The notes beneath the pieces are model-generated. The model ran no database searches and was not told the origin of the DNA. It saw only the letters and a program-made list of their open reading frames with translations. 64,000 nucleotides of DNA from Candidatus Moraniibacteriota bacterium. Its GTDB lineage: Bacteria > Patescibacteriota > Minisyncoccia > Moranbacterales > UBA1568. Shown here in pieces: positions 50,968-62,744 of this stretch (positions are counted from its first letter, which is position 1; every line of letters begins with the position of its first letter). Both the position numbers and the translations under genes were made by a program. The stretch lies in contig JAAXXZ010000002.1 in the NCBI GenBank assembly GCA_013334245.1, forward strand, positions 21,166-85,165, read 5' to 3'.

Positions 50968-51180
50968 AACTCGTCGAAAGCATGCCCCGTAGCAGAGTCC
51001 GCGAGGCTTTACGGGGTCAAAAGCCCATAAAGTCTATCAAGTCGGAATGTGGGGGCTGAATCAGGAATAGGGAATAAGGAATCAGGAAAGAACGCAAGAA
51101 TCCGTCCGAAAGGGCGGATTCTTGCCAATATGGAAGGGTTTGGTTATACTGTCTCTGTTTCAAGTTCGCTTGAAAATCAG

Positions 51181-51196
51181 ATTCCGGTGTAGCTCA
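51181..51196 (+). repeat. Direct duplicate of tRNA-Asn 5' end plus 2 upstream nt (attccggtgtagctca)
   Basis: Exact 16-nt match to 51596-51611. The two copies bracket the GIY-YIG ORF. Confidence 0.7.
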
Positions 51197-51245
51197 ACCC
51201 AACGGGTCCCCTTCGGGGGCGGTAGGGCAGGGTGAATTAAATGAT

Positions 51246-51608
51246 ATGAAGTATTTTGTTTATCTTCTGCAGAGCGAAAAAGATAAGCGTTTTTATATCG
51301 GTTCGACATCGGATCTTGAAAAAAGACTGACGTACCATAATCGCGGTTCGAACAAGTCGACACGGCATAGGAGACCGTTGAAGCTTGTACACGTCGAGGA
51401 GTACGATGAGAAGTCGGATGCGACGAAACGAGAATTTCTTCTGAAAAGTCCGAAAGGTTTTTTGGAAAAGAAGAGAATTATAGAAGATGTACGAAATTCC
51501 GGCGAACCTCAAACAAACGGGTTCCCTTCGGGTGTGGCAGAGCAGGAGAAAGGAGTTTCGTTTGATGAGAATGGTGATGTCTTGAAAGAGAATGATATTC
51601 CGGTGTAG
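51246..51608 (+). CDS. GIY-YIG nuclease family protein (tRNA-adjacent; stop codon lies inside tRNA-Asn 5' end)
   Basis: MKYFVYLLQSEKDKRFYIGSTSDLEKRLTYHN is a GIY-YIG motif. It is a paralog of the 17256 ORF. Its TAG stop is at 51606-51608, within the tRNA acceptor/D region. Confidence 0.8.
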   Translation: MKYFVYLLQSEKDKRFYIGSTSDLEKRLTYHNRGSNKSTRHRRPLKLVHVEEYDEKSDATKREFLLKSPKGFLEKKRIIEDVRNSGEPQTNGFPSGVAEQEKGVSFDENGDVLKENDIPV

Positions 51609-51671
51609 CTCAGCGGTAGAGCAGGGGACTGTTAATCCCTTGGTCGCAGGTTCGAATCCTGCCGCCGGAGC
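51599..51671 (+). tRNA. tRNA-Asn (anticodon GUU)
   Basis: Acceptor TCCGGTG/CGCCGGA, D-arm GCTCAGCGGTAGAGC, anticodon stem GGGGA/TCCCT with loop CTGTTAA (GTT), T-arm GCAGGTTCGAATCCTGC, discriminator G. A terminator hairpin follows (51681-51706). Confidence 0.85.
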
Positions 51672-51756
51672 CGACAAATGCAAGGCCACCCATTCGGGTG
51701 GCTTTTGCGTTTGCTTCGGCTCCGAGCGGAGCGAGTGAACGGTTTCACTCGCGTCA

Positions 51757-52052
51757 GGATTCGAAAGGCGGAGCGTCGTTCGGTCAGCAGACCGGACAGC
51801 GAGCCGGGGTCGAGGAATTATCCCGCGACGGCGGGATAATATTTGTGACCGAATCCGCCGCCGGATATTCAGATGTGCTTCCGTCAGGATGAGAACGCCG
51901 GAGCGTCTTTTGCCAGCAGGCAAAAGCGCTTGTCACGTCGCTCACGAACGACGTGATGAAACGGTGCCCAGCCCGAGGGGCGCGACGGCGCACCGAGAGG
52001 CGAGTCACGTCATTCGCGAACGACGTGGCGAGGGAGCATCCTGCCGCCGGAA
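51757..52052 (+). repeat. Two degenerate tandem ~130-nt units each ending in a tRNA-Asn 3'-end-like segment (aatcc(t)gccgccgga)
   Basis: The units begin cgtcaggat..gaa..gccggagcgtc (51757 and 51886). tRNA-3'-like matches are at 51851-51865 (gaatccgccgccgga) and 52038-52051 (atcctgccgccgga, exact 14 nt). Confidence 0.5.
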
Positions 52053-52375
52053 CCCTGTGCCGTTTTCTGAATTTTCAGGGCATACTGCCGTTTACGAAAT
52101 ATGATGTTATTTGATTCTTCCAGTATTTCCAAAGATAACTTTACCGAAAGATTATCCGTCACGTTCAGGACAAGTCTATTCCCGAATTTCTCGTGCAACG
52201 GCCGAAGGAATTCATCTCCCCAGGAAGGGGAAAACGTGGTTACCCCGTCAAAATCGACGATGACATCTTGATTGTCTTTGACATCATTGAGAGTCGGAGT
52301 AAATGCTGAAAGCGCCTCTTTTCCGGCCTGGCGGGAGGTGAGGACAGTCCCGAATTTTTTCAGTTCGATGTTCAT
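52010..52375 (-). CDS. STAS-like (DUF4325-type) protein
   Basis: About 120 aa with SpoIIAA/STAS-like pattern (VIVDFDGVTTFSPSWGDEFL). Immediately downstream of the GHKL ATPase gene. Start chosen at MNIELKK. Confidence 0.55.
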   Translation of the reverse strand: MNIELKKFGTVLTSRQAGKEALSAFTPTLNDVKDNQDVIVDFDGVTTFSPSWGDEFLRPLHEKFGNRLVLNVTDNLSVKLSLEILEESNNIIFRKRQYALKIQKTAQGSGGRMLPRHVVRE

Positions 52376-52386
52376 ATCGGTCAATT

Positions 52387-53112
52387 CTAAAAAGTGATGT
52401 ACGTGAAGCATCCCGAAACGGTATCCGGCGTTTCCTGGATATCAAGGCCGGTCCTTTCCTTTGAGATTTCAACGGTCGCGTTACCGGTCTGAAAGAATAT
52501 GTCCATATTCGCGATCGGAGCGACTTTTCTCACGAACTTTAGTCCGTTGCCTCGTTCCTCGGGGGCTCTTCCGGAAAGAATCTCCGTGAACGCCGTCCTG
52601 AGCGCCTCCGCATCATTCTTCAGGGATGGCTTGACTCGCTTCAACGTTTTCAGGATGCCTTGTCCCTTGTCCGCGAGAACGATCTGTCCTTTTGCGACGT
52701 CATAGCCGAAAAATATGCCTCGGATATCCGGCCAGTTGCCGATATTATGATCGTAGGAGTTGTTCCCGATTTCGCTGGTAGCCGCCACGATAAGGGAAAA
52801 CGAGGCGCTGAGGTCGGGGTTTAACCGCAGATCTCGCTCCAGATTCTCGATTCTTGATTGAAATACGGCTGTGCTGGGACAGTAAAAGTCCGGAGGGGGC
52901 AGTGTTCCATTGGGAGCGTTCAGCCACTCTATCGCCTGGTTATACAAAGAGTCTCCCAGAAAAATTCGGATTTTTCGTACTGAAAAACGCCGACTCCCAC
53001 CCGGGGTCCGAATCGCGGTCAGTTTCCCGTTCTTATCCCACGCCCTGAGCGTGGTAGGGGTAACGCCGAGTATTTTCGCCGCCTTTCCTATCGATATGTA
53101 TTCTTCGTCCAT
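52387..53112 (-). CDS. HTH_17 (excisionase/MerR-like) DNA-binding domain fused to GHKL/SpoIIAB-like ATPase domain
   Basis: N-terminal ISIGKAAKILGVTPTTLRAWDKNGKLTAIRTPGGSRRF (HTH_17 pattern). The C-terminal part carries an N-box (EIGNNSYDHN) and G-box (ERGNGLKFV) of the anti-sigma-factor kinase-like ATPase fold. Confidence 0.65.
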   Translation of the reverse strand: MDEEYISIGKAAKILGVTPTTLRAWDKNGKLTAIRTPGGSRRFSVRKIRIFLGDSLYNQAIEWLNAPNGTLPPPDFYCPSTAVFQSRIENLERDLRLNPDLSASFSLIVAATSEIGNNSYDHNIGNWPDIRGIFFGYDVAKGQIVLADKGQGILKTLKRVKPSLKNDAEALRTAFTEILSGRAPEERGNGLKFVRKVAPIANMDIFFQTGNATVEISKERTGLDIQETPDTVSGCFTYITF

Positions 53113-53215
53113 ATTTCGGAAATATATTCACAGTGTATCAAAAGTTATAAATATTGTCAAAGAATATAAAAATATATAAATCTGAATATTATATATAAAT
53201 AAATCTTTACTCCCC

Positions 53216-53239
53216 GACATCTTCGGGAGGGAGTATGAC
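53216..53239 (+). repeat. Intergenic repeat family copy R1 (core cgacatcttcgggagggagtatga)
   Basis: Identical 24-nt core to the copies at 54706 and 56541. Confidence 0.7.
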
Positions 53240-53287
53240 TTCGATAATCCATCTTCTGATTTTGCGTAGCATTCGCATGGCGAATGA

Positions 53288-53983
53288 CTACTTCTCATTC
53301 TCGATTGCCACGTTCAGGAAGAAGATCGTTTCACTTTTCAGTTTCGCGCGGGCCCAGTCTTTTTGCGGTTCACCCAGGAGTTCTCCGAGGCCGTCGAGGA
53401 TATGCCGGTCGTCCATGTGCTCAAGCATATCGACGCACTTTTGCAGGGCCTCTTTGAAGGGGAGTCCGGAACGCTGCTCCGCTATTTCGCGGTTGATCTC
53501 CCAGCCTTGTTTGAAGAAATAATACACGTCGAAGACATCGCGGCTCGTTTTGCCGATCCGTTCGTACATGGCCATGAGCTTGTGCGCGAACATGTCCGGC
53601 TCGGTCATGACGAGCATGGAAATCCCCAGAAAGGTCTTCATCTCGTAGTTCGATCCGAACTGTCTTCGGTTGATCTCGATCTTTATATTCTGCGCTCCCG
53701 CCTCGTATGAAATAACGGTAAGCAGATTGAAGCGTTTTCTATGGGAATCCACGATGACCCCGTACGTTTCGGCGATTTTCTGGATTTTCCCGAACACGAA
53801 CTCCTCCTTGGAGTCGTCCAAGAGATCGAGATCGATATCGACCGAATATCGGTCGAGACCGTAGAAGAGCATCGCGGCCGTCCCGCCCTTGAATCCGAGG
53901 TACGGAGCGATAGTCGTATCGGTATAGATATCCTTGAGGATCCGGAGCAGGATGCTCTTATGTTTGGCGTAGTTCGCAGCCAT
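53288..53983 (-). CDS. Nucleotidyltransferase AbiEii/AbiGii toxin family protein
   Basis: LGFKGGTAAMLFYGLDRYSVDIDLDL, the characteristic AbiEii NTase motif (GGTAL...S.DIDL). Confidence 0.8.
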   Translation of the reverse strand: MAANYAKHKSILLRILKDIYTDTTIAPYLGFKGGTAAMLFYGLDRYSVDIDLDLLDDSKEEFVFGKIQKIAETYGVIVDSHRKRFNLLTVISYEAGAQNIKIEINRRQFGSNYEMKTFLGISMLVMTEPDMFAHKLMAMYERIGKTSRDVFDVYYFFKQGWEINREIAEQRSGLPFKEALQKCVDMLEHMDDRHILDGLGELLGEPQKDWARAKLKSETIFFLNVAIENEK

Positions 53984-53984
53984 A

Positions 53985-54581
53985 TCATTTCGTGTTTATG
54001 AAGTTCCGGTGAAATTTCCGTACCTGTTTTTCCAGCCGCTTGTTGCCATATACGGGCAGGATTTCGAAAACCTTGTCCCAATCCAAGACATTCAGGCTAT
54101 CGAAGTAATATTCCTTGGTCACATACAACCGGTCCAGAAAAGCCCGCTCTTTCGTAGCCCAGGCGACGCCGTTTCTATGATCGATTCCCGTGGTATCGCT
54201 CAAGACGGAACTTTTCATGCGGACATAGTTGATTTTCTGACCGTTAGCCTCTATCTCGCGGTTCAGATACGATGCGACGAAGATATTCCCATAGTACTGG
54301 AAACTGACTCCTTCACGGGTCAAAACGGTCTCGAAGCCGATATAGGAGGGGGTATAGATCCGCGTCGCCAGCTCGTACCGGTCGTAGTTTTCGTCTTTGG
54401 CATACAGGCCATGGCGGACCCGTAACAGCTTCCCTGCGCGGATGTACTTCTTCAGGCGATTGGTGATGGTCGCACTCTCTGATTCGCCCCACAGCAAAGC
54501 CACGTCCTGAACGGAGAAGACGGTTTTCGATGATCGTAGCAGTATTTCCAGGAAATTTCCCTTTGAAGGTCTATTTTCCAT
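53985..54581 (-). CDS. AbiEi-family type IV antitoxin
   Basis: N-terminal wHTH and C-terminal domain typical of AbiEi (FSVQDVALLWGESESATITNRLKKYIRAGKLLRVRHGLY...). 1-nt gap to AbiEii. The track start at 54632 is possible. Confidence 0.75.
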   Translation of the reverse strand: MENRPSKGNFLEILLRSSKTVFSVQDVALLWGESESATITNRLKKYIRAGKLLRVRHGLYAKDENYDRYELATRIYTPSYIGFETVLTREGVSFQYYGNIFVASYLNREIEANGQKINYVRMKSSVLSDTTGIDHRNGVAWATKERAFLDRLYVTKEYYFDSLNVLDWDKVFEILPVYGNKRLEKQVRKFHRNFINTK

Positions 54582-54652
54582 ATATGTACTGATATGGTAC
54601 TTTAAGTACCCTTTCAGTAACAATAGTAGCATATTTTGATACTGCGCGCAAG

Positions 54653-54731
54653 GACCCGGGTTTTTGATTGCTCAAGAAAGGCTTCACAAAGCGACACTTG
54701 CGACATCTTTGGGAGGGAGTATGATGATATG
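54653..54731 (+). repeat. Intergenic repeat family copy R2 (palindrome cccgggtttttgattg + ggcttcacaaagcgacacttgcgacatctttgggagggagtatgatgatatg)
   Basis: Shares about 75 nt with R3 and the 3' core with R1 and R4. Confidence 0.75.
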
Positions 54732-54838
54732 TAACCTTGGAAACGCACCTGACTTCTTTTCTGTTCTGGTATAAGGAATTATATGGAAAAACTTGAACTC
54801 AGGAATAGAAAAATCAGAAGATCGTCGGTATACTCGAG

Positions 54839-55579
54839 ATGCCGGAGGGGCTAGTACATGGTACGGCTGTGGTTTTGCACGGTTTCGGTGGGATAAAGGA
54901 ACAGGATCATATTCTGAAGATGGCGGCCACATTCCGAGACAACGGATTTATCACGTTCAACTTTGATGCCACTAACTCTTTCGGCGAGAGTGAGGGGGAG
55001 TACTGGGACGCGCGGCTCGGGCTACACGCTGAGGATTTGGAGGATGTCGTGAAATGGGTGCGACAGCAGGTCTGGTTCAGGGAACCTCTGGCATTGACGG
55101 GGCACAGTATGGGCGGGTATGCCGTTGCTCGATACGCGGAACGATATCCGGACGAAGTCTCGATCCTTGTCCCGATCGCCCCGGTCGTTTCGGGCAAGCT
55201 TTCTTTTGAAGCGCATCATGAGGAAGACCCCGTCGCATTCGAGGAATTCAGGCGGCGTGGATTCAAAGAATCCGTGAGTCATACATCCGGTCGTCTCAAG
55301 CGTTCCTCGTGGGCGGAAATGGAGGAACGGCTGCATCATGATCTTTTGCCGGATGCGAAGAAACTCGTCATGCCGACGCTTCTGGTCGTCGGGTCGAAGG
55401 ACTTCTCGATCAGACCTCGGGATGTGCAATCACTCTACGACGCGCTTCCGGCGAGAAAAGACAACGAGATCCGGATTATCGAGGGGGCGCCGCACACGTA
55501 TCGAAGTCGGGAAGATGTCGATGCCTTGTATGAGATCATCTCGAACTGGTTGAAGGACTTGATGCTGAAGAAACATTAG
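54839..55579 (+). CDS. Alpha/beta hydrolase
   Basis: HGFGG oxyanion region and GHSMGG nucleophile elbow. GC-rich, unlike its neighbours. Flanked by R2 and R3. Confidence 0.75.
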   Translation: MPEGLVHGTAVVLHGFGGIKEQDHILKMAATFRDNGFITFNFDATNSFGESEGEYWDARLGLHAEDLEDVVKWVRQQVWFREPLALTGHSMGGYAVARYAERYPDEVSILVPIAPVVSGKLSFEAHHEEDPVAFEEFRRRGFKESVSHTSGRLKRSSWAEMEERLHHDLLPDAKKLVMPTLLVVGSKDFSIRPRDVQSLYDALPARKDNEIRIIEGAPHTYRSREDVDALYEIISNWLKDLMLKKH

Positions 55580-55636
55580 GAATAAGCCAGAAAAGGAGCC
55601 ATGCACCATTGTTGTGAACAGCTTCTATCCCGATTG

Positions 55637-55732
55637 AATCAATCAAAAACAACCAAAAACCCGGCCATCCACACGGACCCGGGTTTTTGATTGAGAAAAA
55701 AGGCTTCACAGAGCGACGCTTGCGACATCTTC
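55637..55732 (+). repeat. Intergenic repeat family copy R3 (long hairpin caatcaaaaac...cccgggtttttgattg + ggcttcacagagcgacgcttgcgacatcttc)
   Basis: Direct repeat of R2, diverging after cgacatcttc. Confidence 0.75.
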
Positions 55733-55790
55733 TGAAAGTGAGCGCGTCATTATTAGCTCTTGAAAACAAGTGATTTCGTCTGTAGCTTGA

Positions 55791-56258
55791 TTATTTTATT
55801 GCATTCAATTCGACAGGAAAATTGTGAAGATTATCACATTCGCTGCAAATGTAGGTCATACTTCCAGCATAGCTCTCATTTAATCCTGTTATTGAAATAA
55901 CAAATGAGCCTGCTCCTTTTATCCTATGTTTTTGGTCAAAATAATTAATTACTCCTATTCTGTCCGGAGTAACAAAACCTTGAAGAATAAAAGCGACCTT
56001 TAGAATAGAGTTTGAAAAAACTTCATATTTACCGGTAATGCGTTTTCCATGCTGTGATATGGATAAAATACCTTTTTCGCCTTCGAACCACGGCTTTTGC
56101 CGGTCTTGATTGCCATACACAATTTCATATTTCCCTGAAATGTTCGGATAGAACTTCATAAACAGTGAATAATACCATTCAAATATCTTATTTTTTAGTA
56201 AATAAGCAATGAATGTGGCAAAGAGTGATGAAACGATGCCTGTAATGAAAGCGCTCAT
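55791..56258 (-). CDS. Hypothetical membrane-anchored protein (AT-rich, island)
   Basis: 155 aa with an N-terminal TM (ITGIVSSLFATFIAYLL) and a soluble domain with CSEC. About 30% GC. Confidence 0.5.
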   Translation of the reverse strand: MSAFITGIVSSLFATFIAYLLKNKIFEWYYSLFMKFYPNISGKYEIVYGNQDRQKPWFEGEKGILSISQHGKRITGKYEVFSNSILKVAFILQGFVTPDRIGVINYFDQKHRIKGAGSFVISITGLNESYAGSMTYICSECDNLHNFPVELNAIK

Positions 56259-56540
56259 AGGTTCGAAAATAGTAAAATAATTAAGCCAATACTATATATC
56301 ATACCCCAATTAAACCGAAATACAATTTTGCAGGAAAGTAATTTGGATGCCAAAATGAACTAGGCACTTTGCTCCCTTTGGGCCTAATTGTTTTAGGTAT
56401 TGGTTGCTGATATAAAAAAGGGTATACACATGAAGTGGCATACGCCTCTTTGGTTAATTGCTGGTCAAGCTGGCACCGGCACCGCCCATAAGGGATGCCT
56501 TTTTGGCGCAATCCTCGATTTTGAAACAAATCTGCCTTTT

Positions 56541-56571
56541 CGACATCTTCGGGAGGGAGTATGATGATATG
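56541..56571 (+). repeat. Intergenic repeat family copy R4 (cgacatcttcgggagggagtatgatgatatg)
   Basis: Identical core to R1 and R2. Confidence 0.7.
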
Positions 56572-56777
56572 AACTCCGAAATGTACAAATATCTGTTCCG
56601 GATTAATTCATATTTTTCCGGCCCGGAAGGCATAAGGGGGGGGTGCTGACGGGACAAAATGTACCTGATGCATTTTCTGAGATCAAAATGAGAAAGATGT
56701 TAATGATTTCTTTGCCTCATTAAATTAGCTTTGACTAAGGCTAGTTTGGGGCGTAGAATCTATAAAATCATTACTTT

Positions 56778-59270
56778 ATGATTCCGGTTAGAATTAAGAA
56801 CAATTTATATAGATTTAAGAGTTTTTGGCTGTTCAAGAAATGGCTTAACAGGCCTGTATTTTTGTTTTGGGCAAATATGTTCCATGGGCATTACACTATG
56901 GATAATACTAAAAATTACATACGAATATTAAAGCCAACCATAGTTCCCTTTTTGGGATCTGTATTGTATAGCGCCTTTATCATATTTATTCTTGAGCTTT
57001 ACAATAAATATTTTCCAATAAATTCTCAGTTTTTTGATAAGGCTTCAACTGATTCATTGCTTACTGCTGTGGCTAGTCTTATGGGTGTATTTCTCGGACT
57101 TTATTTTGCAGCTCTTTCTGGCATTGCAAGCAATTTCTTAATAAGAGCAACACAGGATGTCAGAAGATTCTTTTTTTCTGCTCCCCTGGGGTTGCAATAT
57201 GTTCGCACTATTGCAATTACTGGAATTGTAAGCGTATTTTATTTATTCCTTAAATCGTTTGGGCACACCTTTCACCCCGTTGGCCTTGCTTTTCTGTCTC
57301 TATTAGCTGCATACATAATTATAAGGTTCTGGAGTATTGGATCTTCGGTTTTTAATTCAATGGAACCGGGCAGCTCCTTTCCATTTGTTAGAAAGGATAT
57401 AGAAGATTCTATAAAAGATATTGCACCACCAGGATTTCAATGGCAAACGCCATTGCTTCAAAATCATAGACGTAGATTGGTTGTTACTGATTTGGATTTG
57501 CTAGCAAACTTGGTAGATTTTGGAATTAAAGAACTCGAACTTCCTGATGAGCAGTTGCTTACAGCTATTGCTCACTTGCGATTAATCTTACTCAAATATT
57601 CAGAAAGCAAGGGAAAAATACCCAGAAAGAGTCTCTGGCATGAGACCAAAAGCCAGTTTGAGAATTGGGCATTTACTGACTCTACCCGAATTAGTCTTGC
57701 TCTAAATACCGGAACATCTATCCAGCCTAAATCAATTCAGGATTTCTTCTGGTTTGAAAATAGAGTCTTTGATATTGTCGTCAAAATACTCAATGAGCTT
57801 GGAAAAAAGAACAAAATACTATCTGTATTTCAGGGCTCTGAATATTTTATTGATGTGGCTGAAGAATATGGGGAAAATCTTGAAGAAGAAAATGTAAAAA
57901 CATTGCTTCAAAAACTAGAGGGAATTTTTTCCAACACTCATTTGGAGAAAACAGATGAAGGTCAAGTTGCGCACAAGGAGCAACTTGCACTTTTAGAAAC
58001 CCAGGGAAGATTAGCCATAGCCGCATTACTTGGGCTAATTAGACACATTGATAAATATCCTTGTGAAAAAATTTCATCGAAAATATCTGGGATTAATTGG
58101 AATTCCAAAAAGAAAGAAACTATTTATTTGACGGGACTTCCATCTTCCATGCTGCCAAGATTAGAAGAAATAGAAGCTAATCTGGAAAATGAAAAGGTTA
58201 TTGAGGGCAAGATACAATCTCCTAGATGGTATATAAAAACTCTTTGCATGCAACAGTACTTATACTCTCTTGAGAAGTATTTTATTTATATAAAATCATT
58301 GCATTCTAATTATTTTCAACGAAAATTCGATAAATTATTAGCAGAGGAACAATATTCGCTTGCAGTGCATTTCCTTCAAAGATGGCTTGAGTTTTCCAAT
58401 AAGTATCAGAGTTTAATTGGATATCTCAAAAAACAGGCTGAATGCTGTAGAAAATTTCATTGGGTAAAAGATTTGCCATTTCCAGACTTTGATTTTTCTC
58501 AAGAAGAAAAAACTGCTTTAGACAGAGAAAGAGAGGTTACTGATAAAATGATTCAGTTACTTCCCAAATTAAAATCAGCAGTAACTGGAAAAGAATTACC
58601 TGACTACTTTGGTCAAGCGCTCACTCTTGGGCTCCAAGCTTGCTATGAAGCATGCATGGATAATGATGTGGAAAGATTTATAAATATTTTCCCAATTATT
58701 TTTGATGCATCGCTGGTATCTCATGATAAAATTCGGAAAGAAGTTCAAAATTGGAGCCAGGACGATAGTAAGATTATTTACTCAACAGAACCACTGGCTA
58801 ATCTGTTCGAAATAAGTGGGTTTGCTCTTCTTTATGCGGAGCTATATCAAAAAAATGAACTCTGGGACATAACAAAAAAAACGTGGAATGCATATTTAAA
58901 AATTGTAGATGCTAAAGCGGCAATTCAGTTTATGATTGCAATTGTGGGATACCGAAATAGCTTGTTTGTCTTGATGCCCCAAGCAATTCTGAGAACAAAC
59001 TGGCAGATGAATTTTAATAGAAAAATGAAAGAAGCGGGGTTGCCAGTTTTTCCTGAAGATAGATATGGCAGAAAAGGAAAAATATCTCATAAAAGTGCGT
59101 TAATAAGAGTTATTGCAAAATGGGGAGGCCTATCAATATTTTCTGCCCAAGAAGTATTTTTCACTATTTATTTATCGAATCGTCCTGAAGCAAAAGACCT
59201 AGCTTTCCTAGATAAGCATGAGCTTAAAGAGGAGGTTGAAAAAGAGGAAAAAGGAAACATTGAAGAATAA
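56778..59270 (+). CDS. Hypothetical 830-aa protein: N-terminal 4-TM domain + large all-alpha cytoplasmic domain (AT-rich island, unknown function)
   Basis: Long ORF at about 31% GC. TM helices at about aa 55-75, 95-120, 150-170 and 175-195. No recognisable catalytic motif. Confidence 0.6.
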   Translation: MIPVRIKNNLYRFKSFWLFKKWLNRPVFLFWANMFHGHYTMDNTKNYIRILKPTIVPFLGSVLYSAFIIFILELYNKYFPINSQFFDKASTDSLLTAVASLMGVFLGLYFAALSGIASNFLIRATQDVRRFFFSAPLGLQYVRTIAITGIVSVFYLFLKSFGHTFHPVGLAFLSLLAAYIIIRFWSIGSSVFNSMEPGSSFPFVRKDIEDSIKDIAPPGFQWQTPLLQNHRRRLVVTDLDLLANLVDFGIKELELPDEQLLTAIAHLRLILLKYSESKGKIPRKSLWHETKSQFENWAFTDSTRISLALNTGTSIQPKSIQDFFWFENRVFDIVVKILNELGKKNKILSVFQGSEYFIDVAEEYGENLEEENVKTLLQKLEGIFSNTHLEKTDEGQVAHKEQLALLETQGRLAIAALLGLIRHIDKYPCEKISSKISGINWNSKKKETIYLTGLPSSMLPRLEEIEANLENEKVIEGKIQSPRWYIKTLCMQQYLYSLEKYFIYIKSLHSNYFQRKFDKLLAEEQYSLAVHFLQRWLEFSNKYQSLIGYLKKQAECCRKFHWVKDLPFPDFDFSQEEKTALDREREVTDKMIQLLPKLKSAVTGKELPDYFGQALTLGLQACYEACMDNDVERFINIFPIIFDASLVSHDKIRKEVQNWSQDDSKIIYSTEPLANLFEISGFALLYAELYQKNELWDITKKTWNAYLKIVDAKAAIQFMIAIVGYRNSLFVLMPQAILRTNWQMNFNRKMKEAGLPVFPEDRYGRKGKISHKSALIRVIAKWGGLSIFSAQEVFFTIYLSNRPEAKDLAFLDKHELKEEVEKEEKGNIEE

Positions 59271-59271
59271 T

Positions 59272-60321
59272 ATGAATAGCTTGATAAAAAAAATTATAGA
59301 AAAAATTAAACCTGTCTTGCGGGATCCTCTTTGTCTGAAAAAATGGGATTCTCCTGATCATTATGGGCATCGCTTAGAAGACAGTAATCGTCTATCCGTA
59401 AGGGTTTCAGGCTCCATGAGAAGAGATTTGTACTCTTATAATGGGGATGCTTTTATGTTCACTCAAGATATCTATGCTGGAATAATGCCATTCATGCATT
59501 ACAGAGGAAAAAGAGAAGCCTACCCAACTAAAGTAATGCCTGCAAATAAAGAGAAAGAGCAAATGATTTGCGAAGGAATTTCAGATAGAGGCAATGCATA
59601 TTTCATTGAGGATGCATTGTGTGATTTTGTTAGAAAAACAGCACAAATATTATGCACTGATGGCATTGTATTTTATGAGATAATTTATGACAAAGATGAA
59701 AATGGACAAATTGAGAGTTTTGAATTAGAAACAATCAGGTCAAAATATTTTTTCCGTTTTCTTGGAAATTATTACCAAATAATACCTTGGTGGGAGGCAA
59801 AAAGATCTCACGTTAGAGTTCAGCTTGTAAAAATTCCAAAAGACAAAATTTTAAGAATAGATATCCCTCTTGAACTTGGGGGTGGTAGAAAATTAAAGAG
59901 AGTAATCAAGCGGTTATGGAAATTGAGTAAAGAAATAATACCTATATTTCAAATGGAAGCGATGGAGAATGATAAGAGTATCGGTTTTGATATGGAAAAA
60001 TTTAGCATGGCCAAATATTTAGAAATAGCAAAAGTAACAAGAGATTTTGGGTGGAGCCAGAGACAACGAGCTGAGAGTAGTTCAATCACTGAATACTATC
60101 TGATATTGCGTCATTTAAGAACAAAGAAGGCGGAAGCTTTAATTAGGGAAAAAATTATATTGGAGTTAAACAATACTCTCAATGGACTAGTTTTAAATTT
60201 GGGCGTAAAAGTAAGTATGGACAACTTGTTTACGTTACGAGACGTGGAAAAACAAGAGGAAATTCTAAAAAAAGGAAATGTTACTTTTGTGGATATTGTT
60301 AATGCTATAAAACTAGAATAG
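59272..60321 (+). CDS. Hypothetical 349-aa protein, translationally coupled to upstream 830-aa gene (unknown function)
   Basis: ATG 2 nt after the upstream TAA. AT-rich. No recognisable motif. Confidence 0.6.
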   Translation: MNSLIKKIIEKIKPVLRDPLCLKKWDSPDHYGHRLEDSNRLSVRVSGSMRRDLYSYNGDAFMFTQDIYAGIMPFMHYRGKREAYPTKVMPANKEKEQMICEGISDRGNAYFIEDALCDFVRKTAQILCTDGIVFYEIIYDKDENGQIESFELETIRSKYFFRFLGNYYQIIPWWEAKRSHVRVQLVKIPKDKILRIDIPLELGGGRKLKRVIKRLWKLSKEIIPIFQMEAMENDKSIGFDMEKFSMAKYLEIAKVTRDFGWSQRQRAESSSITEYYLILRHLRTKKAEALIREKIILELNNTLNGLVLNLGVKVSMDNLFTLRDVEKQEEILKKGNVTFVDIVNAIKLE

Positions 60322-60447
60322 CTAAGCTTTATTCATCAAGGTTCTGACTTCTTCCATAACGTGGAGCAAAACGAAATCCGCCCGGAGCCGGAAAATGGGT
60401 TAAGTGCATTTTTTTAAAGATCACGTCTGATTCATTTCGCTTCTTAA

Positions 60448-60482
60448 CTAATATAAAAGGGTATACGTACGTATACCCTTTT
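60448..60482 (-). terminator. Perfect palindromic intrinsic terminator closing the rSAM-peptide operon
   Basis: aaaagggtatacgtacgtataccctttt. Confidence 0.75.
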
Positions 60483-60484
60483 GG

Positions 60485-60523
60485 TTACTTGCCGGCGGAG
60501 CCGGTGCTTGCGCCACTATCCAT
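60485..60523 (-). CDS. Tiny ORF 2: MDSGASTGSAGK (12 aa) with consensus SD, candidate ribosomal peptide
   Basis: Minus strand reads GAGGAGGtaaacgctATGGATAGTGGCGCAAGCACCGGCTCCGCCGGCAAGTAA. 8-nt SD-to-ATG spacing. It resembles tiny ORF 1. Confidence 0.45.
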   Translation of the reverse strand: MDSGASTGSAGK

Positions 60524-60576
60524 AGCGTTTACCTCCTCTGCGTCATTGTTTTTTTTTGAAAAAAGCCTCTGTTTGA

Positions 60577-60612
60577 CTACTTGCCTGTGGAACCGGTGTT
60601 TGCGCCGCCCAT
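60577..60612 (-). CDS. Tiny ORF 1: MGGANTGSTGK (11 aa), SD formed by last two Arg codons of rSAM gene, candidate ribosomal peptide
   Basis: Minus strand reads AGGAGGTGAgaataATGGGCGGCGCAAACACCGGTTCCACAGGCAAGTAG, immediately after the rSAM stop. Confidence 0.45.
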   Translation of the reverse strand: MGGANTGSTGK

Positions 60613-60617
60613 TATTC

Positions 60618-61760
60618 TCACCTCCTTTCGTGTTCGTTTTGATTTTGGAAAATTGTCGCTTCTATTGCAATTGCCTGTTCGAAATGCATGTCGAGCCACC
60701 TTCGCACGCATTCTTGATAGAGTTTCGAGAGGGTGTTGTCCGGTCCGATGGGGCCGACGGTGAGCGGAGAAAAGTCTTTGCCGAAACGCGATATGCCTGA
60801 CTGAAGCTCCCGTAGGGAATACGCATTGGCGTAGGGGAGCCGGAAACAGGCATCGGCATCGATGACGAAGGTTTCCTTCGGGGCTATGGAGTGCGGGAAA
60901 TATCGGATCTCGATACCGTCGATCTCGAACCAGACCGATGAATAGTCCGCGATTGCTTGTGAGAATGCGCAATCGAAGACTTTTCGCCCTACGGCTTCAA
61001 TCAGTTTTGGTACATCATCTGTCCAGTAGAACTTTAACGTGACGGGTCGATGTTTACTGATTTGCTTCAGTTGTCTCCAGGATTCCTTGAATTGTTCTGC
61101 GGTCACGGAGAGCGGCATGAGCTCGGGTCTGGCCGGGGTTACGGTCGTCACGTGCCACGCTTCGATACTTTGTGTCAGTGTATCGCATGTCGCGACGAGC
61201 GTATCGTAATTGAGGCCTGTGAGCGTGGTCAGCGCGCTTACCGATCCATTTGCAACAAGGATATCATGTGCGGCGTCGATGCCTGTGAGCGCATTACGGA
61301 ACGCCGTAGTGGAACATCGCTGCCGGTTGTGGACGGCCTCTGGTCCGTCTATCGAGATATCAAGCCCGTCGAAGCGGAATCCGGAGGCGAGAATCTCTGG
61401 CAGGTGCCGGACATACGAACCATTGTCGATAAGACCGATATAGGCATCTGGCCGTATTTGTCGTACCGCACGGAGCCAGTCGAGGTGTTCCGGCGAGAAG
61501 GTTCGGCCTTCGTGAATGAGGGCGAATCCATGGGGCATCTGCCGGGAAATCGTTTCGACGGCGATACCGAGAGCGTGACTGTCGGCTGGCAGCGAGTCAT
61601 CGTGGGGGAATATGCAGTGTCGGCATTGCAGATTACACTTCCTCGTACCGATGACAGAGAGAATGTTCGGGAGATCGTCGGGCATACGGGTACGGATCGC
61701 TTCGGCGGAACCCGCCTGACGCATGTATGCCAGCCACAAGTCGGCGACGGAATGTTTCAT
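60618..61760 (-). CDS. Radical SAM domain protein
   Basis: CNLQCRHC (Cx3Cx2C) near the N-terminus. The track ORF extends to 61820, but I prefer the start at MKHSVADLW. No SPASM-like Cys cluster. Confidence 0.75.
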   Translation of the reverse strand: MKHSVADLWLAYMRQAGSAEAIRTRMPDDLPNILSVIGTRKCNLQCRHCIFPHDDSLPADSHALGIAVETISRQMPHGFALIHEGRTFSPEHLDWLRAVRQIRPDAYIGLIDNGSYVRHLPEILASGFRFDGLDISIDGPEAVHNRQRCSTTAFRNALTGIDAAHDILVANGSVSALTTLTGLNYDTLVATCDTLTQSIEAWHVTTVTPARPELMPLSVTAEQFKESWRQLKQISKHRPVTLKFYWTDDVPKLIEAVGRKVFDCAFSQAIADYSSVWFEIDGIEIRYFPHSIAPKETFVIDADACFRLPYANAYSLRELQSGISRFGKDFSPLTVGPIGPDNTLSKLYQECVRRWLDMHFEQAIAIEATIFQNQNEHERR

Positions 61761-61946
61761 GGTCGTTTTGCTAGGGGTTGTGAAAGGGCTTTTCTGTCCA
61801 GAGTATGAGCTGGTGTTCAAGAATAGACAAAATAGATGAATGAAACAAAGTTCGATTTTGTATTTATATAAAGCAAAAGAAACGACATCTGATTCTATTC
61901 ATCAAAAATATTGACTCTTTGGATGATTCGGGAATATCATAGGCGT

Positions 61947-62744
61947 ATGGAACTCATGGAATCGCTCATCAATCTGGGACTCAACGACAAGGAAGCCAAG
62001 GTGTACCTGGCTCTGCTTCCGCTTGAAAAGGCGACGGCCTATACGGTCGCGGTCCGGAGTGGGCTCAAAAAGCCGACGGCCTATGTCGTGCTCGATACGT
62101 TGGTGGGAAAAGGGTTCGTCTTGAAGATACCGGGCTCGGACAAGCATCTGTTCATGGCGAAGTCCCCGAAGGAATGCGTCGCGGCCGCTCGACAACGACT
62201 CTCGACTGCCGAGGACGCCTTGCCGGAACTCATGGCCCTGCGCAAGAAAGGGGAGGAGAAGGCGAACGTTTCCTATTTCGAGGGGTTCGACGGGATACGG
62301 GAAATGTATACACGATTGGTGACGGATATGAAGGGGAGGCCGATCGGGGACCGCTCGTTTGTCGCCTTCTATGCGCACCAGAAACACACGCCGGACTTTC
62401 TTCGCGACTACTGGCTGGAATTGAACGAGACGTATCGGGAAGCCGGTATCCGTCGGAAGGCGATCACGACACTCGATCCGTCGATTCGGCAGTACCTGGA
62501 GGAAGAGACGAAACGTCGCTTCGGCATGGACCTGCGTCCGCTTCCGGAATCCGAGTATGCAAGCAATGTCTCCATCGAAATCTACGGCGACCGCGTGCAG
62601 ATCGTCTCGCATCGCGGGATTCAGGGCGTACTCATCGAACACCAAGATATCGCCGACGTCATGCGGCAGATATTCGCCTTGGTGTGGAAAACGACGGAAG
62701 TGACGAACGAAGGAAATGAATCGCAGGAACACCTAAACGGATGA
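61947..62744 (+). CDS. TrmB family transcriptional regulator (paralog of 19882)
   Basis: wHTH LINLGLNDKEAKVYLALLPLEKATAYTVAVRSGLKKPTAYVVLDTLVGKGFV. Divergent from the rSAM gene. Confidence 0.75.
   Translation: MELMESLINLGLNDKEAKVYLALLPLEKATAYTVAVRSGLKKPTAYVVLDTLVGKGFVLKIPGSDKHLFMAKSPKECVAAARQRLSTAEDALPELMALRKKGEEKANVSYFEGFDGIREMYTRLVTDMKGRPIGDRSFVAFYAHQKHTPDFLRDYWLELNETYREAGIRRKAITTLDPSIRQYLEEETKRRFGMDLRPLPESEYASNVSIEIYGDRVQIVSHRGIQGVLIEHQDIADVMRQIFALVWKTTEVTNEGNESQEHLNG

What the first reader, a model, noticed from the sequence alone, without database searches (positions are those of the whole stretch)
53195..56575. Four-copy intergenic repeat family in the island (palindromic cccgggtttttgattg hairpin + conserved ...gcgacatcttygggagggagtATGA core)
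Copies sit at 53216, 54653, 55637 and 56541, all in + orientation and spaced 1.0-1.5 kb apart, between cargo genes that lie on both strands. The two long copies, R2 and R3, flank the GC-rich alpha/beta-hydrolase gene as direct repeats. Each begins with a perfect hairpin (aaaaacccgggttttt). The 3' core holds a strong SD (GGGAGGG) and an ATG, but what follows differs: MMI-stop in two copies, an antisense read-through into AbiEii in another. So the conserved unit is a 5'-leader/RBS module, not a gene. Two readings fit: a MITE-like element, or a cassette-boundary repeat marking modular gene insertions (an attC-like idea).
Basis: seen in the sequence. Interest (0 to 1): 0.6.

Follow-up and report, generated by a model that had tools for sequence, protein, structure and literature searches.

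The report
Cassette-junction repeat in a Moranbacteria island
A 50-170-base sequence (a leftover gene end, a terminator hairpin and a highly conserved ribosome-site-like core) recurs at the borders of swappable gene cassettes in a variable island of several uncultured Moranbacteria genomes, so it marks, and probably mediates, cassette shuffling with no integrase in sight.

Summary
The repeat is real: the 24-nt core occurs 3 times against 0 expected, and a fourth copy carries the left half. Only R3 has a two-armed hairpin, R2 keeps only its 3' arm, and R1 and R4 have none. R3 lacks the SD/ATG part, and MMI-stop occurs only in R4.

The window comes from a Candidatus Moranbacteria (CPR/Patescibacteria) genome. 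I found 28 copies of the same unit in 10 related assemblies. All copies share one orientation, and all lie in the island between rpoD/tRNA-Asn and rsgA wherever those flanks are on the contig. There were none elsewhere in 1.49 Mb searched.

The unit is a copy of the 3' end and downstream intergenic region of a KamA-like radical-SAM gene. It holds a variable remnant of that gene, a bidirectional terminator (Block A), a fast-evolving spacer, and a conserved core, CATCTTCGGGAGGG (Block B).

The same cassettes (AbiE, hydrolase, IMP-cyclohydrolase-like, MerR+DUF4325 and others) sit in different orders in different genomes, with the units at the joints.

Best reading: a cassette-boundary module that punctuates expression and supplies portable homology for cassette gain, loss and replacement. 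A dedicated site-specific recombinase is not excluded. It is not a MITE, not attC, and not the 5' UTR of a gene family. No recombinase was found nearby.

The parts
53201..53238 (+). R1, a core-plus-right copy: a pyrimidine tract, then CGACATCTTC, then GGGAGGGAGTATGA. It forms the joint between the MerR/DUF4325 cassette and the AbiE cassette.
   Evidence: The nhmmer hit covers 53202-53245. Cassette homology to L007, L086, L088 and L093 starts at 53215-53219. In L093 the same joint carries a full unit.
54649..54766 (+). R2, the only complete unit apart from a missing 5' hairpin arm. Block A 3' arm GGACCCGGGTTTTTGATTG at 54652-54670, spacer 54671-54700, core 54701-54710, GGGAGGGAGTATGATGATATG at 54711-54731, and a short-ORF remnant up to about 54766.
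   Evidence: 54652-55592 is 94.5% identical to L086 9868-10811. The junction 'gcgcgcaag|gacccggg' is shared with L088.
55618..55732 (+). R3, a left-plus-core copy. Remnant of the last codons and stop of a KamA-like gene (55618-55637), bidirectional terminator hairpin (55650-55693), spacer, and core CGACATCTTC (55723-55732). Unrelated sequence follows.
   Evidence: Hairpin -21.7 kcal/mol on the + strand and -26.5 on the - strand, z about -5 to -6. KamA-end homology appears.
56527..56577 (+). R4, a core-plus-right copy: a short diverged spacer, CGACATCTTC (56541-56550), then GGGAGGGAGTATGATGATATGA.
   Evidence: 56538-56679 is 85.5% identical to L086 6957-7101, where a different cassette lies upstream.
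56569..56649 (+). 26-aa ORF (MNSEMYKYLFRINSYFSGPEGIRGGC) that starts at the unit's third ATG. It is conserved in L086 and followed by motif C at 56656-56677.
52010..53112 (-). Cassette: DUF4325 (52010-52411) plus a MerR-type HTH protein (52387-53112).
   Evidence: Pfam. The same cassette appears next to a different neighbour (an IMP-cyclohydrolase-like gene) in L084.
53288..54632 (-). Cassette: the AbiEii toxin and AbiEi antitoxin pair.
   Evidence: Pfam and PADLOC, E = 8e-77 and 3e-60. Present at 83-93% identity in L007, L086, L088 and L093 (AbiEii protein 90% identical in L096), each time with different neighbours.
54783..55579 (+). Cassette: alpha/beta hydrolase, frameshifted in an A-run at 54809-54813. 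The intact ORF runs from 54839.
   Evidence: Pfam. Homologues are 260-265 aa long. The run is A5 here and A6 in L086.
55733..56540 (-). Cassette with a 155-aa ORF (55791-56258, 34% GC, weak 2TM-effector hit). It is bracketed by the 10-nt core CGACATCTTC of R3 and of R4.
56680..60390 (+). Low-GC (34%) block with 830-aa and 367-aa ORFs of unknown function. It is absent at the corresponding point in L086 and bracketed by inverted copies of motif C.
60383..60602 (.). Right-end element of the island: inverted motif C, a terminator hairpin, and two tiny ORFs on the - strand. It is conserved at the array ends in L086, L008 and L088.
51599..51672 (+). tRNA-Asn, the left anchor of the island, downstream of dnaG-rpoD.

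Best explanation
The repeat is the junction module of a gene-cassette array. The array is a flexible island between tRNA-Asn and rsgA in a clade of Candidatus Moranbacteria.

Each unit is a copy of the 3' end and downstream intergenic region of a KamA-like radical-SAM gene. From left to right it contains:
- 0-49 leftover KamA codons;
- a strong bidirectional intrinsic terminator, whose 3' arm GGACCCGGGTTTTTGATTG (Block A) is about 96% conserved;
- a fast-evolving A-rich spacer;
- a conserved element, pyrimidine tract-CGA-CATCTTCGGGAGGG(A/G)G (Block B), followed by a short ORF start.

Shown:
- Units sit exactly where cassette content switches between genomes.
- The same cassettes occur with different neighbours.
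- Some cassettes are far more similar between genomes than the housekeeping flanks are.
- Different parts of a unit (hairpin, spacer type, core) are recombined with each other.

Inferred mechanism:
- The units act as portable homology. Blocks A and B give 19-30 nt, and up to about 300 nt with the KamA remnant.
- Host homologous or short-homology recombination uses this after DNA uptake, or between array copies. A crossover in Block B on one side and Block A on the other would replace a cassette. Recombination between two units would loop out or re-insert circles, or delete cassettes.
- At the same time each unit insulates its neighbours. The terminator works in both directions, and a strong SD drives only a dummy mini-ORF.

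In this reading no dedicated recombinase is needed.
For: Reality and distribution:
- The core occurs 3 times against 0 expected.
- There are 28 non-redundant unit copies in 10 assemblies. All have one orientation relative to dnaG-rpoD or AbiE and all are inside the island. None occur elsewhere in 101 sequences totalling 1.49 Mb, including the other roughly 54 kb of the window.

Origin:
- A full KamA-like gene precedes the unit in L008 and L088.
- Other units carry fragments covering aa 336-384, 357-384 or 359-384, or only the last codons (tblastn; sequences).

Cassette shuffling:
- window: MerR | AbiE | hydrolase | 155aa | 26aa + low-GC block
- L086: AbiE | 141aa | 26aa | HATPase+DUF4325 | NTP_transf | hydrolase
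- L088: IMPCH | AbiE | TrmB-KamA | 155aa' | SEC-C
- L084: MerR | IMPCH
- L007: cupin | AbiE | ...
- L096: DUF1801 | AbiE | cupin | 155aa' | HATPase+DUF4325

Horizontal exchange:
- Window against L086: hydrolase cassette 94.5% and AbiE 89%, but rpoD 75.5% and rsgA 79.6%.

Mosaicism inside units:
- The AbiE right junction (half hairpin) is shared by the window and L088, but the spacer that follows is 'main' type in one and 'var' type in the other.
- The spacer type follows the upstream cassette (IMPCH gives var twice, KamA gives main twice), while the post-core sequence follows the downstream cassette.
- Left of the core, identity between window R2 and its L086 counterpart falls to about 83% by my count on the printed sequences, against 94.5% for the whole cassette match.

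Block conservation as mean pairwise identity:
- Block A 0.96, Block B1 0.91, spacer 0.62.

Terminator and recombinase checks:
- Terminator -21.7 and -26.5 kcal/mol on the two strands, z about -5 to -6.
- No recombinase domain in Pfam scans of 44 window ORFs or of 32 ORFs from L004, L007, L008, L011/L086 and L088. None among the precomputed Pfam families of the called genes of L086 and L088 either.
Against: - Blocks A and B are much more conserved than needed for a terminator or an SD. The 3' hairpin arm is at 96% against 86% for the 5' arm with no compensating changes, and CATCTTC upstream of the SD is nearly invariant. This is what protein-binding or recombination sites look like.
- Several joints fall within the same 10-14 nt (CATCTTCGGG) although the sequence on one side is unrelated: R1, R3/R4, L086_6198 and four different left contexts of AbiE. 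That stretch is short for RecA-type recombination and resembles att-type crossover.
- R3 and R4 bracket the 155-aa cassette with an identical 10-nt core, like attL and attR.
- No direct evidence of recombination events, such as circles or population variants, was available.
- Only part of each genome could be searched.
Confidence: 0.45

Rival explanations
1. The core is a true site-specific recombination site: a roughly 7-nt overlap ACATCTT flanked by imperfect inverted arms CTTTCCG and CGGGAGG. It would be used by a recombinase encoded elsewhere, such as a Xer-like tyrosine recombinase or an IS110/IS1111-type RNA-guided recombinase. That would make the array a functional analogue of an integron, with cassettes captured and excised at the core.
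For: - Joints cluster at the edges of CGACATCTTC even where one side has no homology. Examples are R1, R3, R4, L086_6198, and AbiE joined to four different left contexts.
- R3 and R4 carry the same 10-nt core on both sides of an 808-nt insert, like attL and attR.
- The core is 91% conserved across genomes whose spacers are only 62% identical.
- The core region is an imperfect palindrome.
- In L093 a 5'-truncated IS110-family element sits where a unit is expected, after AbiE. Its 3' flank is ...CCCCGACATCTTC. From my own knowledge, IS1111-attC elements target integron attC sites in a similar way.
Against: - No recombinase was found in any array or in the 44 window ORFs tested.
- Breakpoints also occur elsewhere in the unit. 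One is between the hairpin and the spacer in window R2 against L088 U2. KamA remnants differ in length. AbiE abuts DUF1801 stop-to-stop in L096 and L098 with no unit.
- 'Right-only' copies such as L086_6960 and L007_9946 turn out to have their own terminator and a diverged spacer, so they are not clean truncations.
- The CGACATCTTC in L093 lies inside the C-terminal coding region of a 285-aa ORF, and could be chance at roughly 3% in 16 kb (my estimate).
- No bridge-RNA family matched.
Confidence: 0.25
2. The unit is purely a cis-regulatory punctuation element: a terminator plus a translational leader or operator. Block B might be an SD-sequestering hairpin of the thermosensor or riboregulator type, or a binding site for the TrmB-family regulators encoded in the arrays. 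It would have been copied passively by local duplication and play no part in recombination.
For: - The terminator is strong in both directions.
- Most copies can fold into YYUUYCGA-CAUCU-UCGGGAGG, which buries the SD, at -6 to -18 kcal/mol. Changes in the 5' arm are mostly C/U changes opposite G.
- The chosen register pairs best (78.9%) against slid controls (52-70%).
- TrmB genes recur at or within the arrays: window 61911, L008 16152, L086 3 and 14505, L088 9141 and 13722.
- There is a weak sub-threshold ROSE_3 hit on R1 (17.8 bits, E = 2.4).
Against: - The structure is not supported statistically. The 78.9% paired equals the shuffle mean of 78.6%. No helix has real compensatory change.
- Folding z-scores of the window copies run from -0.1 to -0.8.
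- No Rfam family matches.
- The ORFs behind the SD are 1-46 aa and heterogeneous, so there is nothing obvious to regulate.
- Passive duplication does not explain why the same cassettes have different neighbours in different genomes, or why cassettes are exchanged between lineages.
Confidence: 0.15
3. The repeat is a MITE-like or REP-like selfish dispersed repeat.
For: It is short, non-coding and multi-copy, and one part is palindromic.
Against: - There are no terminal inverted repeats and no target-site duplications around the copies.
- All 28 copies have one orientation and lie in one locus.
- There are none in the remaining 54 kb of the window or in about 80 other Moranbacteria/CPR loci.
- Copy boundaries vary, and the copies contain a gene-end remnant.
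Confidence: 0.03
4. The repeat is the conserved 5' UTR of a multi-copy (paralogous) gene family.
For: An SD plus ATG is conserved. Several downstream mini-ORFs start MNS(E/G).
Against: - The genes behind the units belong to unrelated families: AbiE, alpha/beta hydrolase, IMP-cyclohydrolase-like, cupin, NTP_transf_2, HATPase, radical SAM and unknowns.
- They lie on either strand and have their own starts.
- The ORFs fused to the conserved ATG are 1-46 aa.
Confidence: 0.03

Closest known systems
Integron cassette arrays (attC sites, IntI); comparison from my own knowledge
   Same: - One-orientation repeats separate short, functionally unrelated cassettes, including toxin-antitoxin modules.
- Cassette order differs between relatives.
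- The repeat includes a hairpin.
- Cassette homology tends to run from one repeat core to the next.
   Different: - No IntI, attI or Pc was found.
- The repeat is conserved in sequence, not just in structure. It has no R''/L''...L'/R' layout and no GTTRRRY.
- The hairpin is an ordinary terminator.
- Genes lie on both strands, and at least some have their own promoter-like sites.
- The repeat is visibly derived from one gene's 3' end plus its intergenic region.
Homology-driven cassette exchange at conserved flanks (Neisseria 'minimal mobile elements'; replacement or additive flexible genomic islands of marine bacteria); comparison from my own knowledge
   Same: - Different cassettes occupy the same chromosomal slot in different strains.
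- Exchange is explained by uptake of DNA and recombination in conserved flanking sequence.
- No mobility genes are present.
   Different: Here the conserved flank is itself repeated inside the island, up to 6 times. One locus therefore holds many independently exchangeable slots. The flank is a 50-300-nt non-coding module rather than core genes.
tRNA-adjacent tandem islands with repeated att sites (for example Prochlorococcus tycheposons and their satellites); comparison from my own knowledge
   Same: - The island abuts a tRNA gene.
- Direct repeats that copy the 3' end of a target gene delimit tandem modules.
- Many modules lack their own integrase.
   Different: - The repeated target remnant is the end of a protein-coding kamA-like gene plus its intergenic region, not the tRNA.
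- No integrase-bearing member was seen in any of the 10 assemblies.
IS1111-attC / IS110-family elements that target conserved cassette-boundary repeats; comparison from my own knowledge
   Same: One relative (L093) has an IS110-family element at the position of a unit, with the unit core at its 3' flank.
   Different: - There is a single, 5'-truncated copy.
- Targeting of the core is not demonstrated.
- It cannot account for the arrays that lack the element.
SD-sequestering RNA thermometers (ROSE, fourU); comparison from my own knowledge
   Same: A pyrimidine tract can pair, with many G-U pairs, to the SD across a 5-nt loop.
   Different: - There is no significant fold or covariation.
- No family match reaches threshold.
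- There is no real gene behind the SD.

Membership tests
Integron / attC | An adjacent IntI tyrosine recombinase gene with attI and Pc | tested here: not met
   Pfam scans of 44 window ORFs and of 32 ORFs from L004, L007, L008, L011/L086 and L088, plus the precomputed Pfam families of the called genes of L086, L088, L093 and L096. No Phage_integrase hit anywhere. Only part of each genome was visible.
Integron / attC | An imperfect palindrome R''-L''...L'-R' ending in GTTRRRY, conserved in structure but not in sequence | tested here: not met
   The alignment of 16 units shows that the only palindrome is a terminator stem. There is no conserved RYYYAAC/GTTRRRY pair. Conservation is at the sequence level (Block A 96%, Block B 91%).
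Integron / attC | Cassettes mostly promoterless and co-oriented | tested here: not met
   AbiE, MerR/DUF4325, the 155-aa ORF and TrmB lie on the opposite strand. Promoter-like sites occur inside cassettes, for example at 56731-56759.
MITE | Terminal inverted repeats and target-site duplications | tested here: not met
   Inspection of the copy ends shows variable boundaries, no terminal inverted repeats and no flanking duplications. The shared 10-nt core of R3 and R4 brackets a cassette, not the repeat itself.
MITE / REP-type dispersed repeat | Many copies dispersed over the genome in both orientations | tested here: not met
   nhmmer over 1.49 Mb finds copies only in the island and in one orientation. 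A complete genome was not available.
Intrinsic (rho-independent) terminator | A GC-rich stem-loop followed by a T-run, at a gene end | tested here: met
   R3 at 55650-55693 folds at -21.7 kcal/mol, z = -5.8, and is followed by TTTTT. The reverse strand folds at -26.5 kcal/mol with a T-run. It lies directly after gene ends in L008, L088 and L086. R2 keeps only half of it. The function was not tested.
att repeats of a tRNA-targeting integrative element | The repeat equals the 3' end of the adjacent tRNA, and an integrase lies within the element | tested here: not met
   The unit has no similarity to tRNA-Asn, and no integrase was found. A separate tRNA-3'-like repeat does exist at about 52038.
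Conserved 5' UTR of a paralogous gene family | Homologous genes start at the conserved SD/ATG | tested here: not met
   ORFs starting at the unit's ATG are 1-46 aa and heterogeneous. The cargo genes belong to unrelated Pfam families.
Known structured RNA / RNA thermometer | A match to a curated family, or a covariation-supported structure | tested here: inconclusive
   No Rfam hit below E = 0.4. RNAalifold finds only the terminator. The SD hairpin is 78.9% paired against 78.6% in shuffles. Fold z-scores are -0.1 to -0.8.
Homology-driven flexible island (replacement or additive cassettes) | The same slot holds different cassettes in relatives, and breakpoints fall in conserved flanking sequence | tested here: met
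   Searches show cassette order differing in 8 arrays, with homology blocks ending inside units.
Homology-driven flexible island (replacement or additive cassettes) | Recombination is carried out by host homologous recombination after DNA uptake | not testable with these tools
   This needs population or long-read variants, or experiments.

The most novel reading that the evidence does not exclude
The units are the recombination sites of a previously undescribed cassette-capture platform in CPR/Patescibacteria. This would be a functional analogue of the integron. The site is a sequence-conserved core, CATCTT, within an imperfect palindrome next to a terminator. The recombinase would be encoded in trans, either a Xer-like enzyme or an RNA-guided IS110-type enzyme.
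Probability: 0.2. Interest if true: 0.85.

Novelty: new variant of a known kind. Interest (0 to 1): 0.6.

Why it matters
CPR/Patescibacteria have tiny genomes, and very little is known about how they gain and lose accessory genes.

This locus shows a compact island built from small cassettes. Two are recognisable defence or toxin-antitoxin-type genes (AbiE, Fic) and several are metabolic genes. The cassettes are reshuffled between related species, and a conserved non-coding module sits at every recognisable joint. No integrase, transposase or phage genes accompany it. The one exception is a decayed IS110-family element in a single relative.

If the module simply provides homology, it shows how a repeated intergenic sequence can turn one locus into a multi-slot exchange platform. 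If it is a true recombination site, it would be a new integron-like system.

Either way the unit is a practical marker. A search pattern for Block A plus Block B can find such arrays in metagenomes.

Tried and rejected
- **Exact core scans.** The 23-nt core gave 0 hits in genome contigs and 0 in metagenome contigs. The source genome is not in those collections, and relatives differ by 1-2 nt. A gapped Block A...Block B pattern then found 3 metagenome loci.
- **Viral contigs.** One hit to an 18-mer was a chance match inside a GC-rich coding sequence. Two further patterns gave none.
- **Promoter reading.** TTGCGA-16-TATGAT in R2 and TCGACA-17-GATGAT in R4 are picked up at 9 of 12. But 10 promoter-like sites in the region is within the chance expectation of 6.1 +/- 2.7. 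Also, the most conserved bases lie in the would-be spacer, so I rejected this as the main function.
- **Structured RNA.** No Rfam family matched. RNAalifold found only the terminator. The SD-hairpin covariation test was not above its controls.
- **uORF reading.** MMI-stop overlapping the next ATG is present in many copies. In others it is replaced by TTG or GTG variants or lost. Left open, not relied on.
- **Recombinase search.** Nothing in 44 window ORFs or in the arrays. PADLOC recognised only AbiE.
- **155-aa ORFs.** The 155-aa ORF of the window and the 155-aa ORF of L088 are unrelated.
- **Distant KamA homologues.** Those at 47-57% identity keep the TrmB-KamA pair but have no unit.
- **Bridge or seek RNA.** None was detected next to the L093 IS110 element.
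- **Literature.** Two full-text searches found no description of such arrays in CPR.

Full report

The 24-nt core CGACATCTTYGGGAGGGAGTATGA occurs at 53215, 54701 and 56541, all on the + strand, with at most 1 mismatch. None is expected by chance. The left part GACCCGGGTTTTTGATTG occurs at 54653 and 55676, against 0.11 expected. The repeat finder recovers the same families (D1/D3/D15).

- R2 (54649-54731) is the only copy with left part, core and right part.
- R3 (55618-55732) has the left part and the 10-nt core CGACATCTTC, then diverges.
- R1 (53201-53238) and R4 (56527-56577) have only the core and the right part.

Only R3 has a real hairpin: 55650-55693, -21.7 kcal/mol, z = -5.8, and -26.5 kcal/mol on the other strand. 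R2 keeps just the 3' arm (z = -0.3). MMI-stop exists only in R4.

**2. Context**

The host DNA is about 55% GC. The cassettes are about 50% GC, and a 3.7-kb block is 34% GC.

The island starts after dnaG-rpoD-tRNA-Asn (tRNA at 51599-51672). It contains, in order:
- DUF4325 + MerR-HTH (- strand)
- AbiEii/AbiEi (- strand; PADLOC E = 8e-77 and 3e-60)
- a frameshifted alpha/beta hydrolase (+)
- a 155-aa ORF (-)
- a 26-aa ORF
- two large low-GC ORFs with no Pfam or PADLOC match (+)

A radical-SAM gene (-), TrmB (+) and rsgA follow.

**3. Where does it come from, and is it found elsewhere?**

Exact scans with the 23-nt core found nothing in the genome and metagenome collections. A near-identical 2.2-kb JGI contig (L002) contains R1.

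Using DnaG as a handle, the organism is a Candidatus Moranbacteria (CPR/Patescibacteria). BLAST of the repeat against the fetched loci then showed the same unit downstream of rpoD-tRNA-Asn in relatives L007, L008 and L011. More copies came from:
- a gapped Block A...Block B pattern (L083-L085);
- contigs that encode homologues of the hydrolase (L086);
- contigs that encode homologues of the KamA-like gene (L088-L090);
- contigs that encode homologues of AbiEii (L093, L096-L098).

A profile search over all 101 sequences held (1.49 Mb) finds 28 non-redundant copies in 10 assemblies. All have the same orientation relative to dnaG-rpoD or AbiE, and all lie inside the island. There are none in about 80 other Moranbacteria/CPR dnaG loci, and none in the other 54 kb of the window. 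Close relatives without the unit also exist, for example L004.

**4. Anatomy of the unit**

This section rests on the alignment of 16 full copies.

(a) *KamA remnant.* There is a remnant of variable length from the 3' end of a KamA-like radical-SAM gene.
- The intact gene, divergently paired with a TrmB regulator, precedes the unit only in L008 and L088.
- Other copies keep aa 336-384, 357-384 or 359-384.
- Window R3 keeps only the last few codons and the stop.
- Some copies keep nothing.

(b) *Terminator.* There is a bidirectional terminator hairpin. Its 3' arm and T-run, GGACCCGGGTTTTTGATTG (Block A), show 96% mean pairwise identity. The 5' arm shows only 86%, and the loop 78%.

(c) *Spacer.* There is an A-rich spacer of about 30 nt at 62% identity, falling into at least two sub-types ('main' and 'var').

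(d) *Block B.* This is a pyrimidine tract, then CGA-CATCTTCGGGAGGG at 91% identity. It is followed by (A/G)GTATGATGATATGA at 63%, in which the last RTGA is the best-kept feature.

The ORFs that begin at that ATG are 1-46 aa long and unrelated apart from an MNS(E/G) start in some. The cargo genes have their own starts 50-250 nt downstream. So the unit is a copy of the kamA-downstream intergenic region with a little of both flanking genes. It is not the leader of the cargo genes.

More distant KamA homologues (47-57% identity) keep the TrmB-KamA pair but have no unit.

**5. The units are cassette joints**

Gene orders come from Pfam and the precomputed gene tables and from all-against-all BLAST. 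A bar marks a unit. L096 is the exception: its first bar, between DUF1801 and AbiE, is a stop-to-stop joint with no unit.

| Assembly | Cassette order |
|---|---|
| window | DUF4325-MerR \| AbiE \| hydrolase \| 155aa \| 26aa + low-GC block |
| L093 | DUF4325-MerR \| AbiE, then IS110 remnant ... 100aa \| |
| L084 | 3-dmu, DUF1801, DUF4325-MerR \| IMP-cyclohydrolase-like |
| L088 | KARI, PRTase, 3-dmu, DUF1801, IMPCH \| AbiE \| TrmB-KamA \| 155aa' \| SEC-C ... |
| L008 | MazG, 100aa \| IMPCH \| TrmB-KamA \| 607aa |
| L007 | ... \| cupin \| AbiE \| small ORF + membrane protein |
| L086 | ... 163aa \| AbiE \| 141aa \| 26aa \| HATPase+DUF4325 \| NTP_transf_2 \| hydrolase, then Fic, rsgA |
| L096 | DUF1801 \| AbiE \| cupin \| 155aa' \| HATPase+DUF4325 |

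Cassette-level homology typically starts or stops inside a unit:
- AbiE, window 53218-54718 = L088 7584-9084 (93%). This runs from one core to the next.
- Hydrolase, window 54652-55592 = L086 9868-10811 (94.5%).
- The 26-aa cassette, window 56538-56679 = L086 6957-7101.

Relative to L086, the window carries an extra 55593-60382, because window 60383-60530 matches the sequence just after the L086 hydrolase.

Cassettes are exchanged between lineages. Between the window and L086 the hydrolase is 94.5% identical and AbiE 89%, against rpoD 75.5% and rsgA 79.6%. L088 has flanks about 95% identical to the window yet shares only AbiE.

**6. Where are the crossovers?**

Many joints fall in the invariant stretch CATCTTCGGG:
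- AbiE is joined there to four different left contexts. These are the window (no left part), L088 and L093 (var spacer after IMPCH or MerR) and L007 (main spacer after cupin).
- The 26-aa cassette is joined there to two different upstream cassettes.
- R3 and R4 carry the same 10-nt core on either side of the 155-aa cassette.

This looks att-like. But other breakpoints lie elsewhere:
- The window and L088 share the AbiE-side junction 'gcgcgcaag|gacccggg' in mid-hairpin. A main-type spacer follows in one and a var-type spacer in the other, so an exchange took place between Block A and the spacer.
- KamA remnants differ in length.
- In L096 and L098, AbiE abuts DUF1801 stop-to-stop with no unit.
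- Apparent 'right-only' copies (L086_6960, L007_9946) have their own different terminator and a diverged spacer.
- The window's R1 corresponds to a full unit in L093, with 35 nt of unrelated AT-rich sequence in place of about 245 nt.

Overall the units are mosaics whose conserved blocks recombine independently. I take this as favouring homology-driven exchange, with the two near-invariant blocks as preferred crossover zones.

**7. Other functions tested**

- *Promoter.* R2 and R4 score 9 of 12 as sigma-70-like sites, but the total count in the region is not above chance. The conserved bases sit in the would-be spacer.
- *RNA.* No Rfam family matches. RNAalifold finds only the terminator, with no compensatory pairs.
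- *SD-sequestering hairpin.* YYUUYCGA-CAUCU-UCGGGAGG forms in most copies at -6 to -18 kcal/mol. However, 78.9% paired equals the shuffle mean of 78.6%, and fold z-scores in the window are -0.1 to -0.8. This is inconclusive.
- *Recombinases.* None among the 44 window ORFs tested, nor in the gene tables of L086 and L088.
- *IS110 exception.* L093 has a 5'-truncated IS110-family element at the place of the unit after AbiE. Its 3' non-coding region ends at ...CCCCGACATCTTC. That core lies inside the end of a 285-aa ORF and may be chance. No bridge RNA family matched. I keep it as a lead for the site-specific rival.

**8. Interpretation**

Shown: the repeat is a conserved, lineage-restricted, single-orientation junction module of a cassette array, derived from the kamA 3' end and intergenic region. 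Cassettes are reshuffled and horizontally exchanged with the units at the joints.

Inferred, at about 0.45: the units work as portable homology for host recombination, giving cassette replacement, loop-out, re-insertion and deletion. They also work as bidirectional terminators and insulators.

Rivals:
- A true site-specific site for an unseen recombinase (about 0.25). This is supported by the very high conservation of Blocks A and B and by the clustering of joints in 10-14 nt.
- A purely regulatory element (about 0.15).
- A MITE/REP-type repeat, or a gene-family 5' UTR (about 0.03 each). Both failed their defining tests.

**9. Comparison with known systems (from my own knowledge)**

It works like an integron array or a Neisseria-type minimal-mobile-element or flexible-island slot. 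It is not a member of the integron family, because it has no IntI, no attC architecture and genes on both strands.

It also differs from tRNA-targeting tandem islands. The repeated remnant is a protein-gene end plus its intergenic region, and no integrase-bearing member was seen.

Two full-text literature searches found no description of such arrays in CPR bacteria.

I rate it a new variant of a known kind, with interest 0.6.

Noticed in passing
window 60485-60523 (-) and 60577-60612 (-): Two tandem tiny ORFs, MDSGASTGSAGK* and MGGANTGSTGK*, each with a good SD. The first starts 6 nt after the stop of the radical-SAM gene 60618-61820 (-), which is divergently paired with TrmB (61911-62744). 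This looks like a precursor-peptide plus radical-SAM maturase (RiPP-like) set. The peptide-bearing segment 60383-60602 is conserved at the array ends in L086, L008 and L088 (twice).
   Followed up: partly
window 51172-51672; L007 7125-7831: In most relatives the tRNA-Asn gene is split in the anticodon loop by a roughly 630-nt insertion. It scores as a group I intron (Rfam Intron_gpI, 48.1 bits, E = 5e-11, just under the gathering score) and contains a weak HNH ORF. The window's tRNA-Asn has no intron. It is preceded by a GIY-YIG ORF (51246-51608, Pfam E = 8e-17) flanked by two partial copies of the tRNA 5' end (51181-51231, 51496-51546).
   Followed up: partly
window 54809-54813: The alpha/beta-hydrolase gene is frameshifted. 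The A-run is A5 here and A6 in the 94%-identical L086 gene. The full-length protein would start at 54783 (MEKLELRNRK...). This could be a pseudogene, a restart at 54839, or a homopolymer sequencing error.
   Followed up: yes
window 56680-60390: A 34%-GC block carries 830-aa and 367-aa ORFs with no Pfam or PADLOC match. It is absent at the corresponding place in L086. It is bracketed by inverted copies of a 22-nt motif, AAAATGTACYTGACCCTTTTTC (56656 on +, 60391 on -), that also recurs after units in L008, L085 and L086.
   Followed up: partly
L093 3620-4705 (JGI Ga0071116_1000662): A 5'-truncated IS110-family element (DEDD_Tnp_IS110 + Transposase_20) sits where the unit after AbiE is expected. 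Its roughly 165-nt 3' non-coding region ends at ...CCCCGACATCTTC, the unit core. This is a possible case of an RNA-guided IS targeting the cassette-boundary repeat, as IS1111-attC elements do in integrons.
   Followed up: partly
window 51667-51891 vs L008 20471-20694: The stretch just downstream of tRNA-Asn is 97% identical to a second copy at the far end of the L008 island, although the housekeeping flanks of the two genomes are only about 80% identical. A tRNA-3'-end-like repeat (atcctgccgccgga) also lies at window ~52038. These are signs of older tRNA-directed integration and of recent exchange.
   Followed up: no
window 19882-20658, 61911-62744; L086, L088, L008, L091, L092, L094: TrmB-family regulators recur, usually divergently paired with a different gene each time (KamA-like, radical SAM, methyltransferase, DUF3800, AbiE). 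'TrmB + X' seems to be a common two-gene cassette format in these genomes.
   Followed up: no
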